From assembly GCA_037146775.1 (NCBI GenBank), contig JBAWWL010000001.1, positions 261,464 through 325,463 of the forward strand: DNA of 64,000 nucleotides, written 5' to 3'. Each line of letters begins with the position of its first letter. Positions within the stretch are counted from its first letter, which is position 1. This document shows, piece after piece, positions 40,551 through 64,000 of this stretch. A program made the position numbers and the translations under genes. The notes under the pieces were generated by a model. The model was not told the DNA's origin, did not search any database, and saw only the letters and a program-made list of their open reading frames with translations. Source of the stretch: Candidatus Omnitrophota bacterium (GTDB lineage Bacteria > Omnitrophota > Gorgyraeia > Duberdicusellales > 4484-171).

Positions 40551-41327
40551 ATGGACCAGGAAGCTATACATGCGCAGAAAATAAAGCAGATTGTCCAGCT
40601 GTTAAAAAAGTCTACAAGTATCCTTTTTATTACCGGAGCCGGCATTTCTGCGGATTCAGGTTTGCCTACGTACCGCGGCGTGGGTGGATTGTATAATGAT
40701 GCTATAACCGACGAAGGGATTCCTATAGAAACAGTATTAGCCGGAGAAACCCTAAAGGAAAAACCGGCACTTACCTGGAAATATCTTTCACAAATAGAAA
40801 AAAATTGTCGCAAAAGTTCGTTTAACCGTGGTCATAAAGTTATAGCCATGCTGGAAAAGTATTTTCAGCGTGTATGGGTACTTACCCAGAATATTGACGG
40901 TTTCCATCATGCCGCCGGCTCGCATAACATAATTGATATCCACGGCGATATGCACAAATTACTCTGCACAAATTGCCGGTGGCGTAGTACAATAAAAGAC
41001 TATGCCAAGATAGAAATACCGCCGCGTTGTCCGTGTTGTGGCGGTATAGTTAGACCGGAGGTGGTTTTTTTCGGCGAAATGCTGCCTCACGATAAGGTGC
41101 AGATTTTATTGTACGAGATCCGTAAAGGCTTTGATATTTATTTTTCAATCGGGACAACCAGTGTTTTCCCTTATATCCAGGAGCCGATTCTGGATGCCAA
41201 GGCTCGTGGATGTCCTACCGTTGAGATTAATCCGACGGATACCGCTATCTCTGACGTGGTGGATATTAAGTTGTCTTTGCCAGCGGCAAAAGCGCTCGAT
41301 GCGATTTTTAATGTTTTGAAGCAGTAA
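40551..41327 (+). CDS. cobB: NAD-dependent protein deacylase (Sir2 family)
   Basis: It carries GAGISADSGLPTYRG, a Zn ribbon (CTNC...CPCCGG) and QNIDGFHH. Confidence 0.85.
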   Translation: MDQEAIHAQKIKQIVQLLKKSTSILFITGAGISADSGLPTYRGVGGLYNDAITDEGIPIETVLAGETLKEKPALTWKYLSQIEKNCRKSSFNRGHKVIAMLEKYFQRVWVLTQNIDGFHHAAGSHNIIDIHGDMHKLLCTNCRWRSTIKDYAKIEIPPRCPCCGGIVRPEVVFFGEMLPHDKVQILLYEIRKGFDIYFSIGTTSVFPYIQEPILDAKARGCPTVEINPTDTAISDVVDIKLSLPAAKALDAIFNVLKQ

Positions 41328-53748: not shown

Positions 53749-53848
53749 GCGTAACAATTAAAAGCGATGAGAACAAAATGCTGATTGAGCGAAAATCTAA
53801 GGTTTACGGCAATCCCCGAAAGTGTTCCCGCACATGCATTTATGGCTG

Positions 53849-53900
53849 ACCGTTGGCGCAAGTATTGTGGGATGACTTTGGGTATTTTAAAGAAGCCCAC
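53849..53900 (+). repeat. Degenerate copy of the TTGGCG(T/C)AAGT...GATGA(T/C)TTT element
   Basis: TGACCGTTGGCGCAAGTATTGTGGGATGACTTTGGGTATTTTAAAGAAG aligns with the 5' half of the 58706 and 60482 elements. Confidence 0.4.
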
Positions 53901-54017
53901 TGATTGTGGTAATGGAGTTGTAGATGAAGCATCATGATTGTAACTCTTGAAATTATAGCTGATATCTTCTTGGCAGATACCAACTATTAGATTATATGGA
54001 GGTAGCCTTTGAATAGG

Positions 54018-58520: not shown

Positions 58521-58705
58521 AAGAAGCAGAAGAAAAGGATATTGAGGAGATATTGGCTGATGGATGACTGTGACTAAGGCTATAACTCTTGAGTCAAAAT
58601 GGCGCAGAAGGCTATATCAACGACATGGATACCCCAAAAAAATCAATGAAAATGACAGCCTGCCCCGAGCAATGTCGAAGGGTCTATATTAAAACTTTCG
58701 ACTGT

Positions 58706-58806
58706 CCGTTGGCGTAAGTGGCGAGAGATGATTTTGAAGCTTTTAAATAAGATAAATGGCTGTGAATAATAGAGTTGGCAAAGAAGGAGCTGAACGTAAG
58801 TGGAAA
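58706..58806 (+). repeat. 101-nt intergenic element, copy A (identical to 60482-60582)
   Basis: The sequence is CCGTTGGCGTAAGTGGCGAGAGATGATTTTGAAGCTTTTAAATAAGATAAATGGCTGTGAATAATAGAGTTGGCAAAGAAGGAGCTGAACGTAAGTGGAAA. It ends 28 nt before the start codon of the gene at 58834. Confidence 0.8.
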
Positions 58807-58833
58807 GGGCTTTTTGTAAAAAAAGAGAAAATA

Positions 58834-60456
58834 ATGAAAAAGTTTATTTTTAGCTCAGTTTTAATCGCGTTGCTTATTTTTTTGGGATACTTTGTGTCTT
58901 CTCGCAGAGCTGCATTTGATATTTTGATTAACGGCGGCACTATTTATGACGGGACGACCAGGGATTCCTATGTTGCCGATATAGGCATTATAGCCGATAA
59001 AATAGCGGCTATTGGCGACCTTTCAAATAAAACAGCAAAGAAAATTATCGATGCCCGAGAGTTGATTGTTACACCCGGTTTTATTGATGTACACAATCAT
59101 TCTGATCTCGTGTTTCTCTTTGCCGGCAACAAGAGGTATCTGGCCTTGATAACTCCCGCGTGGAAAGGCAATTACAATTATTTGACCCAGGGCGTCACGA
59201 CAATAGTTACTGGGCTTTGCGGCGGAGGATACGCGGACACAAAACAGTGGTTGGACATGGTCAGTCTTATAAAATACGGCACTAATGTTTATCATCTGAT
59301 ACCCTACGGTATGATCAGGGGGAAACTCTTTGGACAGGACCAGCCGCGGACCCTGACTGCCGAGCAGCTTGATACCCTTAAGAAGAGTGTGGAAAGGGAG
59401 ATGCAAAATGGTGCTATTGGCATTTCCGTGGGGTTAGAGTACGCCCCCGATTGTTTTACCACCACCGATGAATTGGCCGAGATCGCCAAGGTGGTCAATA
59501 AATACGGCGGTATTTACGACGCCCATATCCGGGATAACACCGGGACTATCCATGAGAATGGACAGCCTGGAGTGTTGCTAGCGATAAAGGAGACGATCGA
59601 GATCAGCAAACGTGCTAAGATCTCCGTACATATTTCGCATATTCAGCTCAATCTGCCATGGAACGATGTTCAGGCAAAACAGATGTATGGCTTGATAGAG
59701 GAAGCCCGGCGAGAAGGGGTGGATATAACCGCCGATCAACATCCCTACGATGTTGGGTTCGGCATCCTCTCCTATCGCCTACCGGATGAGTTTAAGACCG
59801 CTGTCGGCGTCAAGGATAAATACAAGACTCCTGAAGGTAGAGCCCTTATAAAAAAAGCCATTGAAAAGGTTTTTGTTTTCCTTGGCCCGGAAAAGATCAT
59901 GATCACTTCTTGTCCGGGGAATGAAAAATGTGAGAATAAGACCATCAAGGAGATCGCCGTGATGGAAAACAGGGATCCGGGGGCGGTTTACGTCGACCTG
60001 GTATGTATGGATTCGGCGCCTTACGCGCTTTTCTCTGAGATAAGCGAAGAAGCAAACAGAGGAAATATGCCTCATGAGTACGTTTTTACGGCTTCCGACG
60101 GCTTTACGGTTTTTGACGCTTCCAAGTCGCCGCATCCGCGTTTTTTTGGTTGTTTTCCCAGAAAGATAAGGAAATATGCGTTGGAGGAAAAGGTCCTAAG
60201 TTTAAAAGACGCCATCCGCTCCATGACCTCACTGCCTGCGGAAAAGTTCAAGATGAATCTCAGGGGAAAGATTGTTACCGGTTATTATGCGGATATTGTG
60301 GTTATTGACCTTCAGAATTTTACCGATCGTGCTACCTATTCTGATCGGGCAAAGTATTCCGAAGGCATTGAGTATCTTTTGGTAAACGGCGTGCTCGCAA
60401 TTGAAAAAGGTAAGACTACAGGCAAAAGAGGCGGCAGGGCTTTGAAATCGAGATGA
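58834..60456 (+). CDS. Amidohydrolase-superfamily enzyme, N-acyl-D-amino-acid deacylase (D-aminoacylase)-like, with N-terminal signal/anchor
   Basis: The metal-binding motif HxH is present (GFIDVHNHSD) and the length is typical of D-aminoacylases. A hydrophobic N-terminus (MKKFIFSSVLIALLIFLG) begins at the ATG at 58834. Confidence 0.75.
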   Translation: MKKFIFSSVLIALLIFLGYFVSSRRAAFDILINGGTIYDGTTRDSYVADIGIIADKIAAIGDLSNKTAKKIIDARELIVTPGFIDVHNHSDLVFLFAGNKRYLALITPAWKGNYNYLTQGVTTIVTGLCGGGYADTKQWLDMVSLIKYGTNVYHLIPYGMIRGKLFGQDQPRTLTAEQLDTLKKSVEREMQNGAIGISVGLEYAPDCFTTTDELAEIAKVVNKYGGIYDAHIRDNTGTIHENGQPGVLLAIKETIEISKRAKISVHISHIQLNLPWNDVQAKQMYGLIEEARREGVDITADQHPYDVGFGILSYRLPDEFKTAVGVKDKYKTPEGRALIKKAIEKVFVFLGPEKIMITSCPGNEKCENKTIKEIAVMENRDPGAVYVDLVCMDSAPYALFSEISEEANRGNMPHEYVFTASDGFTVFDASKSPHPRFFGCFPRKIRKYALEEKVLSLKDAIRSMTSLPAEKFKMNLRGKIVTGYYADIVVIDLQNFTDRATYSDRAKYSEGIEYLLVNGVLAIEKGKTTGKRGGRALKSR

Positions 60457-60481: not shown

Positions 60482-60582
60482 CTCTGGGTGACCGTTGGCG
60501 TAAGTGGCGAGAGATGATTTTGAAGCTTTTAAATAAGATAAATGGCTGTGAATAATAGAGTTGGCAAAGAAGGAGCTGAACG
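60482..60582 (+). repeat. 101-nt intergenic element, copy B (identical to 58706-58806)
   Basis: It matches copy A at all 101 nt. It ends 32 nt before the start codon of the gene at 60614. Confidence 0.8.
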
Positions 60583-60613
60583 TAAGTGGAAAAATGCTCC
60601 CGGAGGATTTAAC

Positions 60614-61348: not shown

Positions 61349-61478
61349 TTTACGGCGGCTGATATTATGGAAATAAATTATGAATAAAAAAGGACGAGTT
61401 TACATCAAGACATTCGGTTGGCCAATGGGTGCAGTATTATACGACCATCGTGCCTTATCTGAGTAGGATCTGGTGAGC

Positions 61479-61545
61479 ATTGGCGTAAGTACCGCGTGAT
61501 GATTTTAGAGATTATAAAGAGAGTAAATGCTGTGGAGTTATGGAA
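61479..61545 (+). repeat. Degenerate copy of the TTGGCGTAAGT...GATGATTTT element
   Basis: ATTGGCGTAAGTACCGCGTGATGATTTTAGAGATTATAAAGAGAGTAAATGCTGTGGAG aligns with copies A and B. It lies about 97 nt upstream of the start of the gene at 61642. Confidence 0.5.
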
Positions 61546-61641: not shown

Positions 61642-63126
61642 ATGGAAACGAAAAAACTATTTTTATCCAAAACTAAATACCTCGATGGGATTAAATGCCA
61701 TAAGCTTCTATGGTATGAGTATAACCGCAAGGAAGACTTGCCAGAGTTTGATGCCGCTACACAGGCTATTATGGATCAGGGCAATCGCGTCGGAGAGCTA
61801 GCGCATACGCTCTTCCCTGGAGGCATTGTACTCCAAAGAGACTATATGCCAGACAAGCAGGCGGAGAAGTCCTTGGAAGCCGCCAAGCTTCGTAAACCGC
61901 TATTTGAGGCAGGGTTTGTTTATAAACAGGCCTATGCGTTAGTCGACATCCTTAACCCTGTTGCGAAGGATGCCTGGGATCTCATTGAAGTAAAAAGCTC
62001 AAGTAGCGTAAAGGACGAGCATTATAGAGACGTCGCCTTCCAGAAATATACCTATGAAGGAGCGGGCTTAAAAATTCGCAAATGTTATCTCATGTATATC
62101 AATAACCAATACGTGCGCAAAGGCGACATAGAACCTGAAAAGTTGTTTGCGACTGAAGACGTTACAAAACAAGCAGATGAGCTTATCCCGGAAATAGAAG
62201 AAAATATGGCTGATATGTTCGAGGCAATACAAAAAAAAGATGCCCCGCATGTAAAAGTCGGCCAACATTGTAGTAGTCCTTACCCTTGCCCTATTGAAGC
62301 TATATGTTGGGGTTTTTTGCCCGAAAAAGGTGATATCTTTTGTTTGTATTCGGGTAAAAAGAAGGCCTATGAGCTATTAGAGCGCGGGGTATTGAGTATT
62401 GCCGATATCAAAGAAGATGTAAAGTTGAGCGATAAGCAGAGTATTCAGGTCGAATGTCATAAAACAAGCCGTCCTTACATTGATAAGAAAGGGATAAGGG
62501 ATTTTCTAGACACGTTAGAGTATCCTCTTTATCTCCTTGACTTCGAAACGATGAACCCGGCAATACCTGCTTATGATAATTCAAGGCCGTTTGAAGCAAT
62601 CCCTTTTCAATACTCATTATATATAATCAAAGATAAAGATACAAAACCAGAGCACCACTCATATCTTGCACCAGGGGATAAAGATCCAAGGCCTGAGATC
62701 TTGAAGCAATTAAAAGCGTTGTTAGGAAATTCAGGATCGGTTATTGCTTACAACGCTACATTTGAGAAGACAACGCTTCGACATGCAAGCGAGGCATATC
62801 CTGAGTATCAAGATTGGGTGACATCGGTGGAGGAGCGCGTTATTGATTTGCTTACACCTTTCCGCGGCTTTCTTTATTACCACCCAGATCAGGGAGGGAG
62901 CGCTTCGCTTAAAAGCGTTCTTCCTGTAATGACAAAATCGAGCTACGACAATATGGAAATATCTGATGGTGGCAAGGCGAGTGTTGAGTATTGTCGTGTA
63001 ACCTTTGGAAAAGACGTTGCCGAAAACGATCGTCAGCGTATCCGCGCCGCTCTTGAGAAGTATTGTGATTTGGATACAACGGGCATGATAGAAATATTAG
63101 ATGAATTAATAAAGATTTGTAAATAG
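61642..63126 (+). CDS. DUF2779-type protein: Cas4/RecB-like PD-(D/E)xK nuclease fused to a DEDD-type 3'-5' exonuclease-like domain
   Basis: The N-terminus (LSKTKYLDGIKCHKLLWYEY) is characteristic of the family. A Cys cluster is present (CSSPYPCPIEAICW). The C-terminal half carries Exo-like blocks (LLDFETMNP; AYNATFE; YCDLD). Confidence 0.65.
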   Translation: METKKLFLSKTKYLDGIKCHKLLWYEYNRKEDLPEFDAATQAIMDQGNRVGELAHTLFPGGIVLQRDYMPDKQAEKSLEAAKLRKPLFEAGFVYKQAYALVDILNPVAKDAWDLIEVKSSSSVKDEHYRDVAFQKYTYEGAGLKIRKCYLMYINNQYVRKGDIEPEKLFATEDVTKQADELIPEIEENMADMFEAIQKKDAPHVKVGQHCSSPYPCPIEAICWGFLPEKGDIFCLYSGKKKAYELLERGVLSIADIKEDVKLSDKQSIQVECHKTSRPYIDKKGIRDFLDTLEYPLYLLDFETMNPAIPAYDNSRPFEAIPFQYSLYIIKDKDTKPEHHSYLAPGDKDPRPEILKQLKALLGNSGSVIAYNATFEKTTLRHASEAYPEYQDWVTSVEERVIDLLTPFRGFLYYHPDQGGSASLKSVLPVMTKSSYDNMEISDGGKASVEYCRVTFGKDVAENDRQRIRAALEKYCDLDTTGMIEILDELIKICK

Positions 63127-63139
63127 AGTAGAGGACTTA

Positions 63140-64000
63140 TGACTTCGCGATTTGGCTTCACAGCAATAGATAAAGAATTAGTTGGCGATAGTCGCCTTGC
63201 TGATCCCATGGGGATTCTGCCCATTTGGTCGTACTTTGGAAGGGCATTGATCCCTAATTTGACAGAACAGACGGGCCAGGCAAGGGGATTCTACTTATTG
63301 TGTTCAATATTGTCATTATATGAAAAATATGTTGAGTGGGCTGAAAAAAAGAATAATAAGATTATGCCCGTAGAGCAATTTTATATTCTAGTAGAACAGG
63401 TTTTTGCCTATGCGGTATTTTACAATACGGGTGATTGGAATCTGCGGGGCGACAGGAACGTGAAATATTTCATGAAAGACAATCCGAATCAGATAACGAT
63501 TTCATTGCATAAACAATTACTTGGGTCTCAGCTTGCTACTGGTACATGGGGGTTGTATCGTGGGGCTGCAATGAGATCAGAAATACTTGATGCTTCAGGC
63601 AAGCGTCTTACCGAGAAATTTGCTTCACTCTTCTCGTTTGAGCTTGAGCGCGAAGAATCACTTTTCCAGATAATTCATGAGGCGCATAGTAATGGTGTCC
63701 CAGGCGCAGAACTGAAGCTGAATTCACGGCTGTGTAACGAAGTGTATAAAAAATTCAGGATAGGAAAAAATAAGGAGCTTTTTTGCGATTTTTTAATAAA
63801 TAATTACCAGGTCAAAGATTTTCAGCTCATGAAAGCCGTGGCAGAAGACTTAGTGAACTATGAAATCGAAGGGAATGATTACCGAAAATTTGTAGTAAGA
63901 TATTCAGCGAAGTTTAAAGAACATGCATATGTTTTTAAAGATATTATTAAATGTGAAGACTTCATAGGCACTATTGACTCTATTTTTCCATACCTTTATT
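63140..64000 (+). CDS. Hypothetical protein, truncated at the 3' end by the window edge
   Basis: An ORF opens from the ATG at 63140 (MTSRFGFTAIDKELVG...) and runs at least 287 aa to the window end. I do not recognise the family. Confidence 0.5.

What the first reader, a model, noticed from the sequence alone, without database searches (positions are those of the whole stretch)
61642..64000. DUF2779 Cas4-like nuclease plus DEDD-exonuclease fusion, followed by an uncharacterised gene; candidate defence locus
The 494-aa protein starts with the family-typical LSKxxYLxGxxCxKxLWY motif of DUF2779. It has a Cys cluster reminiscent of Cas4-type Fe-S nucleases and a C-terminal half with Exo I/II/III-like acidic blocks (DFET, AYNATFE, YxxLD). 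This is a two-nuclease fusion whose biological role is not established. It carries the conserved upstream element. It is followed 14 nt later by an unrecognised ORF that runs off the window, consistent with co-transcription. Such nuclease pairs are frequent in phage-defence islands.
Basis: partly seen in the sequence, partly recalled or inferred. Interest (0 to 1): 0.6.

Follow-up and report, generated by a model that had tools for sequence, protein, structure and literature searches.

The report
Orphan double nuclease beside defence island
The gene is a real but already-described type of two-nuclease fusion (DUF2779 family) that here sits at the edge of a 21-kb phage-defence island; the gene after it starts an Azaca-like three-gene defence candidate, and the two are neighbours rather than fixed partners.

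Summary
ORF 61642-63126 encodes a 494-aa DUF2779-family protein. It has an N-terminal Cas4-like PD-(D/E)xK nuclease (D102, E116, K118; Cys19/210/216/222) and a C-terminal DEDDy 3'-5' exonuclease (D300, E302, E375, Y474, D478). This fusion was already described in silico in 2014 and 2026.

The linkage is not conserved:
- PDC-M27 occurs in 1 of 81 DUF2779 loci.
- DUF2779 occurs in 1 of 66 PDC-M27A loci, and there it is not adjacent.
- DUF2779 has no conserved neighbour family-wide.

In the closest Omnitrophota relatives, different defence cassettes follow the DUF2779 stop codon, true Azaca among them. That suggests a cassette hotspot or a loose affinity.

Verdict: new members of known kinds, of modest interest.

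The parts
61470..61535 (+). Copy of a genome-specific repeated upstream element (core TTGGCGTAAGTACCGCGTGATGATTTT at 61480-61506), ending about 107 nt before the ATG. It is a possible promoter or 5' leader of the DUF2779 transcription unit.
   Evidence: Four copies in the window against 0 expected. No Rfam family matches. No sigma-70 consensus on the + strand. Absent from the 154 other loci fetched by then.
61642..63126 (+). DUF2779-family gene, 494 aa: a Cas4-like nuclease fused to a DEDDy exonuclease.
   Evidence: ORF. Pfam PF11074 at 134 bits against a cutoff of 23.3. More than 3500 homologues. AlphaFold2 model with pLDDT 89.9.
61642..62316 (+). N-terminal Cas4/RecB-type PD-(D/E)xK nuclease domain (about aa 1-225). 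Catalytic D102 (61945-61947), E116 (61987-61989) and K118 (61993-61995). Four Cys for a putative 4Fe-4S cluster: C19 (61696-61698), C210 (62269-62271), C216 (62287-62289), C222 (62305-62307).
   Evidence: PADLOC Cas4 PDLC01447 E 3.4e-9 over aa 17-223. All listed residues are invariant in 40 homologues. The Cys motif aligns to Cas4 8d3l. Foldseek: 8d3l_J E 3.6e-4, 4ic1, Exo5, ACE1, AdnAB.
62317..62526 (+). Helical linker, about aa 226-295, possibly a helix-hairpin-helix-like DNA-binding element.
   Evidence: Helices at 239-247, 264-275 and 282-290 in the model. The only sequence hint is a sub-threshold Pfam match to DNA_pol_lambd_f (E 0.017).
62527..63123 (+). C-terminal RNase H-like DEDDy 3'-5' exonuclease domain (aa 296-494); the Pfam DUF2779 match covers aa 297-422. 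Exo I: D300 (62539-62541) and E302 (62545-62547). Exo II: E375 (62764-62766). Exo III: Y474 (63061-63063) and D478 (63073-63075).
   Evidence: Pfam. Residues invariant. Foldseek hits to RNase T structures with probability 0.80-0.99, most of them at or above 0.9. Family placed in the 3'-5' exonuclease clade F.17 by Majorek 2014.
63127..63138 (+). 12-nt intergenic spacer AGTAGAGGACTT with an SD-like GAGGA. No terminator, so translational or transcriptional coupling is plausible.
   Evidence: Sequence; terminator scan.
63139..64000 (+). 5' 287 codons of a 412-aa gene, PDC-M27A. This is the first gene of a three-gene Azaca-like candidate defence system; B (PLD nuclease, 640 aa) and C (SNF2 helicase, 1279 aa) lie beyond the window.
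   Evidence: An identical sequence continues on the NCBI contig CAZTHQ010000016.1. PADLOC: PDC-M27A E 4.7e-15, B 4.5e-41, C 4.8e-95. The A-B-C order is kept wherever B and C are detected among the 66 metagenome loci.

Best explanation
The end of the window is the left edge of a defence island of at least 21 kb in a Candidatus Omnitrophota genome.

The 494-aa protein is an ordinary member of the widespread, uncharacterised DUF2779 family. It is a single polypeptide with two catalytic domains:
- a Cas4/RecB-type PD-(D/E)xK nuclease with a four-cysteine Fe-S site, expected to cut 5' single strands or flaps;
- a DEDDy (RNase T/DnaQ-like) 3'-5' exonuclease.

It has no helicase domain. It most likely works on its own, trimming or degrading both strands at free DNA ends. 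This is an inference from the domains; no activity has been shown.

It is not a dedicated subunit of what follows. The next gene starts PDC-M27 (A, a PLD nuclease B and an SNF2 helicase C). By analogy with Azaca, this should be a nuclease-helicase complex that cuts invading DNA. In this genome the cassette sits 12 nt behind the DUF2779 stop codon and is probably read through from the DUF2779 promoter.

In the closest relatives the same position holds other cassettes. DUF2779 therefore marks a site where defence cassettes are exchanged. Any cooperation, such as DUF2779 clearing the ends that the PLD/helicase system makes, would be facultative.
For: Domains and residues; literature.

The 20 kb upstream is not defence: SIR2 deacetylase, radical SAM, methyltransferases.

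No conserved linkage:
- In 81 non-redundant DUF2779 loci, the commonest neighbour cluster is present in only 5-6 loci, and PDC-M27 only in this one.
- Of 66 PDC-M27A loci, A-B-C is kept and DUF2779 occurs in 1, non-adjacent.
- Four further PDC-M27A contexts lack it.

Cassette exchange behind DUF2779 in relatives of 75-91% identity:
- X plus a beta-CASP MBL nuclease (L010, L011, L017, L157)
- Azaca ZacABC, 2-3 nt after the stop (L016/L158)
- GIY-YIG plus GmrSD
- an HTH_17-Dam methylase
- MerR and an integrase
.

DNA homology to relatives stops at the ORF borders.

Family-wide, the neighbours are mostly unrelated housekeeping genes. The family is absent from 50,697 phage genomes and from IMG/VR, and rare on plasmids at 32 of 72,556. 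A Mycoplasma homologue is quasi-essential in JCVI-syn3.0.
Against: - The 12-nt spacing with no terminator means the four genes are probably one transcript here, which is what a true four-gene system would look like.
- Azaca-type cassettes sit directly behind DUF2779 in two Omnitrophota lineages that acquired them separately (no BLAST match between the A or B proteins; C matches only over a short helicase-motif segment). Another Azaca lies 4 kb away in a Deltaproteobacteria MAG (L062). A PDC-M27 lies 7 kb away in L146. A Planktothrix plasmid has helicase-ATPase-DUF2779-PLD. That is more than I would expect from a random draw of defence systems.
- Roughly a tenth of sampled immediate neighbours are strong PADLOC hits, by my own count from a per-family table (Shango, DRT3, BrxHI and several PDC candidates). 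The family is therefore probably enriched near defence genes. My only control, flanks 6-10 kb away in the same loci, also contained defence genes, so there is no genome-wide baseline.
- No biochemical data exist for any DUF2779 protein.
Confidence: 0.6

Rival explanations
1. DUF2779 is a facultative fourth component of Azaca-type (PLD nuclease plus SF2 helicase) systems. The helicase-nuclease complex makes breaks in foreign DNA. The Cas4-like/DEDDy protein, expressed from the same transcript, then degrades both strands from those ends, much as RecBCD finishes restriction fragments.
For: - Tight coupling here: 12 nt, SD motif, no terminator.
- True Azaca starts 2-3 nt after the DUF2779 stop in L016/L158.
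- Azaca lies near DUF2779 in L062, and PDC-M27 near DUF2779 in L146.
- A Planktothrix plasmid has DEAD helicase-ATPase-DUF2779-PLD.
- DUF2779 has no motor domain of its own.
Against: - DUF2779 occurs in 1 of 66 PDC-M27A loci and is never adjacent.
- 78 of 81 DUF2779 loci have no Azaca-type genes within 10 kb.
- Purified ZacABC cleaves DNA without any fourth protein (bioRxiv 10.1101/2025.07.10.664194).
- No PLD family is among the common neighbours.
Confidence: 0.2
2. DUF2779 is itself a stand-alone defence nuclease, a solo Cas4-like effector, which is why it sits in defence islands. It would degrade invading linear DNA directly.
For: - In most Omnitrophota-clade relatives whose neighbours I could identify, it borders R-M, Azaca, GmrSD, SIR2, a reverse transcriptase (possibly retron- or DRT-like) or BREX-like genes.
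- Strong PADLOC hits occur among near neighbours family-wide.
- Type I R-M genes lie near it in L038, L040, L061 and L083.
- A WYL regulator and a PD-(D/E)XK gene flank it on an Arcobacter plasmid.
Against: - Most neighbours are housekeeping genes: PQ-loop, TPR, aminotransferases, HSP70, NUDIX.
- It matches PADLOC models only through the generic Cas4 and DEDDh domains.
- A homologue is retained and quasi-essential in the minimal cell JCVI-syn3.0, and a mutant was recovered in a cell-culture survival screen in M. bovis. That fits a housekeeping role better.
Confidence: 0.15
3. It is a CRISPR adaptation factor: a Cas4 plus DEDDh prespacer-trimming enzyme serving a CRISPR-Cas system elsewhere in the genome.
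For: Cas4 and DEDDh exonucleases are both known prespacer-trimming enzymes (my own knowledge of the CRISPR adaptation literature). PADLOC's best hits are Cas4 and, weakly, DEDDh models.
Against: - The cas4 equivalog TIGR00372 scores 9.4 bits against a cutoff of 65.
- No cas genes were found among the genes scanned within about 20 kb on either side.
- No conserved cas neighbour in 81 loci.
- The family occurs in Mollicutes, in a minimal genome.
Confidence: 0.03

Closest known systems
DUF2779 family (Pfam PF11074; RNase H-like superfamily family F.17 of Majorek et al. 2014; MMSYN1_0389 of JCVI-syn3.0; NCBIfam UU173 family)
   Same: Same two-domain architecture (Cas4-like/DUF83 plus DEDD exonuclease). 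Same catalytic residues, including Tyr in place of His in Exo III. Full-length Pfam match well above threshold.
   Different: This protein keeps all four Fe-S cysteines, whereas MMSYN1_0389 keeps only two. It is much shorter than the Mollicutes UU173 proteins: the model is 650 positions long and the match here is only partial, at 30 bits. No member has a demonstrated function.
CRISPR-associated Cas4 (e.g. type I-C Cas4 8d3l, SSO0001 4ic1)
   Same: PD-(D/E)xK fold, the D...ExK triad, and a four-Cys cluster split between the N terminus and a C-terminal CxnCxnC motif.
   Different: No cas1/cas2 or CRISPR context. The spacing is CX5CX5C instead of CX2CX5C. It is fused to an exonuclease. It scores below the Pfam and TIGR cas4 thresholds.
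DEDDh/DEDDy 3'-5' exonucleases (RNase T, DnaQ, MrfB)
   Same: RNase H-like fold and Exo I/II/III acidic residues with Tyr four residues before the last Asp.
   Different: The third acidic residue is Glu (E375). There is only weak sequence similarity to any characterised member (PADLOC DEDDh E 0.036).
Azaca (ZacABC) anti-phage system
   Same: For the downstream operon: three genes in the order A, PLD nuclease B, large SF2/SNF2 helicase C. Cross-hits ZacB 4.4e-10 and ZacC 1.3e-17. All three Zac proteins are needed for DNA cleavage in vitro.
   Different: PDC-M27A has no DUF6361 match in any of 37 family members. It is only weakly similar to ZacA over the N-terminal 80 residues (hhalign probability 33%, E 4.7e-4). 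Defence activity of PDC-M27 has not been tested.
PADLOC candidate system PDC-M27
   Same: All three models match in order (A 4.7e-15, B 4.5e-41, C 4.8e-95). The same A-B-C order holds in the metagenome loci where B and C are detected.
   Different: None structurally. Here it has a DUF2779 gene 12 nt upstream, which other PDC-M27 loci lack.
AddAB/RecBCD/AdnAB end-resection nucleases
   Same: RecB-type nuclease with an Fe-S cluster as in AddB. Foldseek hits to the AdnAB nuclease domains. The combined ability to attack both strand polarities is inferred.
   Different: No helicase motor; a single 494-aa chain; the second nuclease is DEDD-type rather than a second RecB domain.

Membership tests
DUF2779 (PF11074) family | Pfam PF11074 match above the gathering score | tested here: met
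   134.2 bits against a cutoff of 23.3, E 3.9e-39, aa 297-422, full model 1-126.
DUF2779 (PF11074) family | N-terminal Cas4-like (DUF83) PD-(D/E)xK domain with a conserved D...ExK | tested here: met
   D102, E116 and K118 are invariant in 40 homologues. PADLOC Cas4 E 3.4e-9. Foldseek Cas4 8d3l/4ic1 with probability 1.0. Architecture as in Majorek 2014.
DUF2779 (PF11074) family | Four DEDD acidic residues plus Tyr/His in Exo III | tested here: met
   D300, E302, E375, D478 and Y474 are invariant. The same pattern is described for MMSYN1_0389.
CRISPR-associated Cas4 | Score above the cas4 family thresholds (TIGR00372 / PF01930) | tested here: not met
   TIGR00372: 9.4 bits against 65. PF01930: 17.6 bits against 22.7.
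CRISPR-associated Cas4 | Genomic association with cas1/cas2 and a CRISPR array | tested here: not met
   No cas genes among the genes scanned upstream (40-61 kb of the window) or in the 21 kb downstream. No conserved cas neighbour in 81 loci. The first 40 kb of the window was not scanned for cas genes.
CRISPR-associated Cas4 | 4Fe-4S cluster bound by four cysteines | not testable with these tools
   Four invariant Cys (19, 210, 216, 222) are present and the last three align to the Cas4 cluster motif. Cluster binding needs spectroscopy.
DEDDh/DnaQ-like 3'-5' exonuclease | RNase H-like fold with the Exo I, II and III motifs | tested here: met
   Foldseek hits to RNase T with probability 0.80-0.99, most of them at or above 0.9, and TM-score (target) 0.30-0.45. 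Motifs DFET, NATFE and YCDLD are invariant. Sequence-level hits are weak.
PDC-M27 (PADLOC candidate system), downstream operon | Genes A, B and C all present, adjacent and co-oriented | tested here: met
   A 4.7e-15, B 4.5e-41, C 4.8e-95; spacings of 3 nt and a 13-nt overlap. Only the first 287 codons of A lie in the window.
PDC-M27 (PADLOC candidate system), downstream operon | Protection against phage | not testable with these tools
   No paper mentions PDC-M27; it is a bioinformatic candidate only.
Azaca (ZacABC), downstream operon | ZacA with the DUF6361 domain | tested here: not met
   No Pfam hit in the protein or in any of 37 relatives. hhalign against a ZacA profile is inconclusive (probability 33%, E 4.7e-4).
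Azaca (ZacABC), downstream operon | PLD-family nuclease ZacB and SF2 helicase ZacC | tested here: met
   B: PLDc_2 6.6e-9 and ZacB 4.4e-10. C: SNF2/ResIII/Helicase_C and ZacC 1.3e-17. Both score far better against the PDC-M27 models.
AddAB/RecBCD-type helicase-nuclease | SF1 helicase motor fused to or partnered with the RecB nuclease | tested here: not met
   No helicase domain in the 494-aa protein.

The most novel reading that the evidence does not exclude
In an Omnitrophota clade, the 3' end of the DUF2779 gene is a dedicated exchange site where nuclease-type defence cassettes are plugged in and read through from the DUF2779 promoter. Cassettes seen there include Azaca, PDC-M27, GIY-YIG/GmrSD, and X plus a beta-CASP nuclease. 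The DUF2779 double nuclease would serve as a shared 'finishing' enzyme that degrades the DNA ends these systems create. That would give the first functional handle on a family that is quasi-essential in the minimal cell.
Probability: 0.15. Interest if true: 0.55.

Novelty: new member of a known kind. Interest (0 to 1): 0.3.

Why it matters
DUF2779 proteins are widespread, and one is quasi-essential in the minimal cell JCVI-syn3.0, yet no member has a known function. This locus does not reveal that function.

It does show three things:
1. The Omnitrophota version keeps every catalytic and Fe-S residue.
2. It has no fixed partner.
3. In its closest relatives it repeatedly borders swapped defence cassettes, twice of the Azaca type.

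This gives a concrete test: does the nuclease change the activity of an adjacent Azaca-like system? It also adds an Omnitrophota example of the untested PDC-M27 candidate, embedded in a clear defence island. That strengthens the case that PDC-M27 is a defence system. Neither point overturns current understanding.

Tried and rejected
- Rfam scan of the whole window: no family, so the upstream element is not a known RNA.
- Reading the element as a sigma-54 or sigma-70 promoter by eye: the GG/GC spacing is inconsistent between copies, and the consensus scan finds no + strand promoter. Left open.
- Structure of PDC-M27A: AlphaFold2 on 5 sequences gave pLDDT 66.9, all-alpha. Foldseek against the PDB gave nothing below E 0.3, so there is no fold assignment.
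- Homology of PDC-M27A to ZacA/DUF6361: no hit from the Pfam scan. hhalign is weak. Not established.
- Profile of the DUF2779 alignment against PDB sequences: only a marginal Cas4 hit (E 0.15).
I reached the rest of the island through HsdR instead.
- Phage origin: no DUF2779 relatives in IMG/VR or in 50,697 phage genomes.
- tRNA or integrase as island anchors: no tRNA in the window or in six island loci. An integrase occurs only in L004/L005.
- GC and GC3 do not separate DUF2779 or the island from the rest of the window.
- High sequence identity among homologues as an argument for a housekeeping role: dropped, because the neighbouring HsdR shows the same 65-90% identities across phyla and archaea.
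- The near-versus-far PADLOC comparison gives only family-level counts and has no genome-wide baseline. I use it qualitatively only.
Full report
**1. Observation**

The ORF 61642-63126 (+, 494 aa) is real.

The next ORF starts at ATG 63139, 12 nt after the TAG (not 14), behind a GAGGA motif. It runs off the window. No terminator-like site lies between the two genes on the + strand.

The 'conserved upstream element' is a true repeat:
- Four copies have cores at 53853, 58709, 60495 and 61480, all on the + strand and all in intergenic DNA. None is expected by chance.
- It matches no Rfam family.
- It is found in none of the 154 other loci fetched by then, including those carrying DUF2779 homologues. 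It therefore belongs to this genome, not to the gene family.

**2. The protein**

Sequence searches:
- Pfam places PF11074 (DUF2779) on aa 297-422 only (E 3.9e-39). The N-terminal half gives Cas4 matches: PADLOC Cas4 at E 3.4e-9 over aa 17-223, and Pfam Cas_Cas4 below threshold.
- The CRISPR cas4 equivalog is far below its cutoff.

Conserved residues, in 40 homologues of 54-86% identity:
- C19, D102, E116, K118, C210, C216 and C222: a RecB/Cas4 triad plus four Fe-S cysteines.
- D300, E302, E375, Y474 and D478: a DEDDy exonuclease.

Structure:
- An AlphaFold2 model is confident (pLDDT 89.9, pTM 0.85).
- Its best PDB matches are Cas4 (8d3l, 4ic1), Exo5, ACE1 and AdnAB for one half, and RNase T for the other.
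- The Foldseek E-values are modest, 1e-4 to 1e-2. The fold calls therefore rest on the combination of fold match, invariant catalytic residues and published HHpred results.

Prior description:
- Majorek et al. 2014 put DUF2779 in the 3'-5' exonuclease clade and noted the fused DUF83 domain.
- A 2026 paper describes the Cas4-plus-DEDDy fusion in the quasi-essential MMSYN1_0389 of JCVI-syn3.0.
- The two-nuclease architecture is therefore confirmed but not new.

**3. What follows it**

The exact protein is on NCBI contig CAZTHQ010000016.1 (a Candidatus Omnitrophota MAG). That contig is identical to the window over the 4082 shared bases and continues past the window end.

The downstream ORF is 412 aa. 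It is followed by a 640-aa PLD-like protein and a 1279-aa SNF2 helicase. These match PADLOC PDC-M27A, B and C at E 4.7e-15, 4.5e-41 and 4.8e-95, with weaker cross-hits to ZacB and ZacC of Azaca.

Azaca is a validated system in which ZacA, the PLD nuclease ZacB and the helicase ZacC are all needed to cut DNA. No paper mentions PDC-M27.

Gene A has no Pfam family in any of 37 relatives and no recognisable fold. Its resemblance to ZacA is weak and limited to the N terminus.

The 20 kb upstream of DUF2779 encodes a sirtuin, a radical-SAM enzyme, methyltransferases, an amidohydrolase and a secreted protein. DUF2779 therefore sits exactly at the island's left edge.

**4. Is the pair conserved?**

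Forward test. I examined 81 non-redundant loci with DUF2779 homologues of 44-91% identity, from Omnitrophota, Margulisiibacteriota, Verrucomicrobiota and other phyla.
- All-against-all clustering of about 1250 neighbouring ORFs finds no neighbour cluster present in more than 5-6 loci.
- PDC-M27 is present only here.

Reverse test.
- Among 66 metagenome loci with PDC-M27A relatives, the A-B-C order is kept wherever B and C are detected. A DUF2779 gene occurs once (L146), 7 kb upstream on the other strand.
- Four further contexts reached by exact-protein look-up have HARE-HTH, HNH or nothing recognisable upstream.

**5. The close relatives show a pattern**

Among Omnitrophota-clade relatives (75-91% identity), DNA homology to our gene stops at the ORF borders. 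What follows the stop codon differs from genome to genome:

| Locus | What follows DUF2779 |
|---|---|
| L010, L011, L017, L157 | an unknown 250-320-aa gene plus a beta-CASP/RNase J-like MBL nuclease, then usually HTH_17 and R-M/BREX-like genes |
| L016/L158 (one lineage) | true Azaca ZacABC, starting 2-3 nt after the stop |
| P0053 contig | GIY-YIG plus GmrSD plus the MBL nuclease |
| L156 | an HTH_17-Dam methylase |
| L004 | MerR, HTH and an integrase |

Several relatives also share an upstream pair of unknown genes (about 250 aa and about 210 aa). Our genome lacks this pair.

The two Azaca-type cassettes, ours and that of L016, are too divergent to be one inherited cassette: there is no BLAST match between the A or B proteins.

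**6. The family at large**

- Near neighbours (148 sampled, within two genes) are mostly unrelated housekeeping families: PQ-loop, TPR, aminotransferases, HSP70, NUDIX.
- Roughly a tenth, by my count from a per-family table, are strong PADLOC hits: Shango, DRT3, BrxHI, several PDC candidates, WYL.
- Flanks 6-10 kb away also contain defence genes. Type I R-M genes lie near DUF2779 in four more loci.
- I take this as probable but unquantified enrichment near defence genes.
- The family is absent from IMG/VR and from 50,697 phage genomes, and present on only 32 of 72,556 plasmids.
- One Planktothrix plasmid has DEAD helicase-ATPase-DUF2779-PLD. An Arcobacter plasmid has PD-(D/E)XK-DUF2779-WYL.

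**7. Interpretation**

Shown:
- the domain architecture and intact active sites;
- the identity of the downstream system and the island;
- the absence of a conserved partnership;
- the cassette variability behind DUF2779 in relatives.

Inferred:
- The protein trims or degrades both strands at DNA ends on its own.
- It is co-transcribed with PDC-M27 here.
- PDC-M27 works like Azaca.

My preferred reading (about 0.6) is an autonomous nuclease gene flanking a cassette-exchange site.

The main rival (about 0.2) is a facultative functional tie to Azaca-type systems. It is supported by the repeated proximity to Azaca-type and PLD/helicase genes: directly adjacent in L016/L158 and on the Planktothrix plasmid, and within 4-7 kb in L062 and L146. 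It is weakened by the reverse test and by the in-vitro sufficiency of ZacABC.

A stand-alone defence role (about 0.15) fits the island context. It fits poorly with the heterogeneous neighbours and with near-essentiality in a minimal cell.

A CRISPR adaptation role is very unlikely.

**8. Novelty**

Both genes are new members of known families: an uncharacterised Pfam family with a published domain analysis, and a catalogued PADLOC candidate. The only possibly new element is the recurrent placement of swapped defence cassettes directly behind DUF2779 in one Omnitrophota clade. This rests on about a dozen MAG contigs and needs a proper survey. Interest is modest.

Noticed in passing
window 53843-53908, 58699-58806, 60485-60592, 61470-61535: A genome-specific repeated intergenic element with four + strand copies. 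Two are 99% identical over 104 nt. Each lies upstream of a gene or operon. The near-identical pair creates spurious identical N-terminal extensions (MAVNNRVGKEGAERKWK) on ORFs 58756 and 60542. It matches no Rfam family and no clear promoter consensus.
   Followed up: partly
window 1-64000 and L161 1-22790: 56 of 57 ORFs of at least 90 aa in the window, and all called genes of the downstream island, are on the + strand. That is at least 83 kb of strictly co-directional genes.
   Followed up: no
[not shown]
   Followed up: partly
L004 6583-7996; L157 2773-4168; L015, L039, L011, L012: Several close relatives share an apparent operon of two unknown genes (about 250 aa and about 210 aa, with no Pfam, PADLOC or PDB match) directly upstream of DUF2779. 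A beta-CASP (RNase J-like) MBL nuclease of about 430 aa lies one to three genes downstream. This backbone is absent from the window.
   Followed up: partly
window 40551-41327 versus L017 9136-9945: The sirtuin-like SIR2 gene 20 kb upstream in the window has its orthologue (64% identity) immediately upstream of DUF2779 in L017. This hints that the 41-61 kb segment of the window, which carries the repeated element, was inserted or rearranged.
   Followed up: no
L025 9932-10956 and L039 9992-11023: In two MAG contigs the DUF2779 ORF is cut short at about codon 320-340, near the linker/exonuclease boundary. L025 runs out at the contig end. In L039 the ORF stops about 110 nt before the contig end. 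Many other contigs end within 2 kb upstream of the gene. This possibly reflects strain-level variability that breaks assemblies here.
   Followed up: no
L160 (Planktothrix agardhii plasmid NZ_LR882954.1) 2436-8446: The annotated gene order is DEAD/DEAH helicase, ATP-binding protein, DUF2779, phospholipase D family protein. This is another helicase/PLD context for a DUF2779 gene, in a different phylum.
   Followed up: no
L103 3879-4115 and 4381-5676: A ZacA-like fragment (46% identity over 79 aa to the L016 ZacA) lies just upstream of a PDC-M27A-like gene. It is a possible link between the two A-protein families.
   Followed up: no
window 59919 (= start of L001): The public NCBI contig carrying this locus ends inside the amidohydrolase ORF 58756-60456, about 1.2 kb downstream of a repeat copy. 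The window therefore comes from a longer assembly; the protein is recorded on a 398-kb contig.
   Followed up: no
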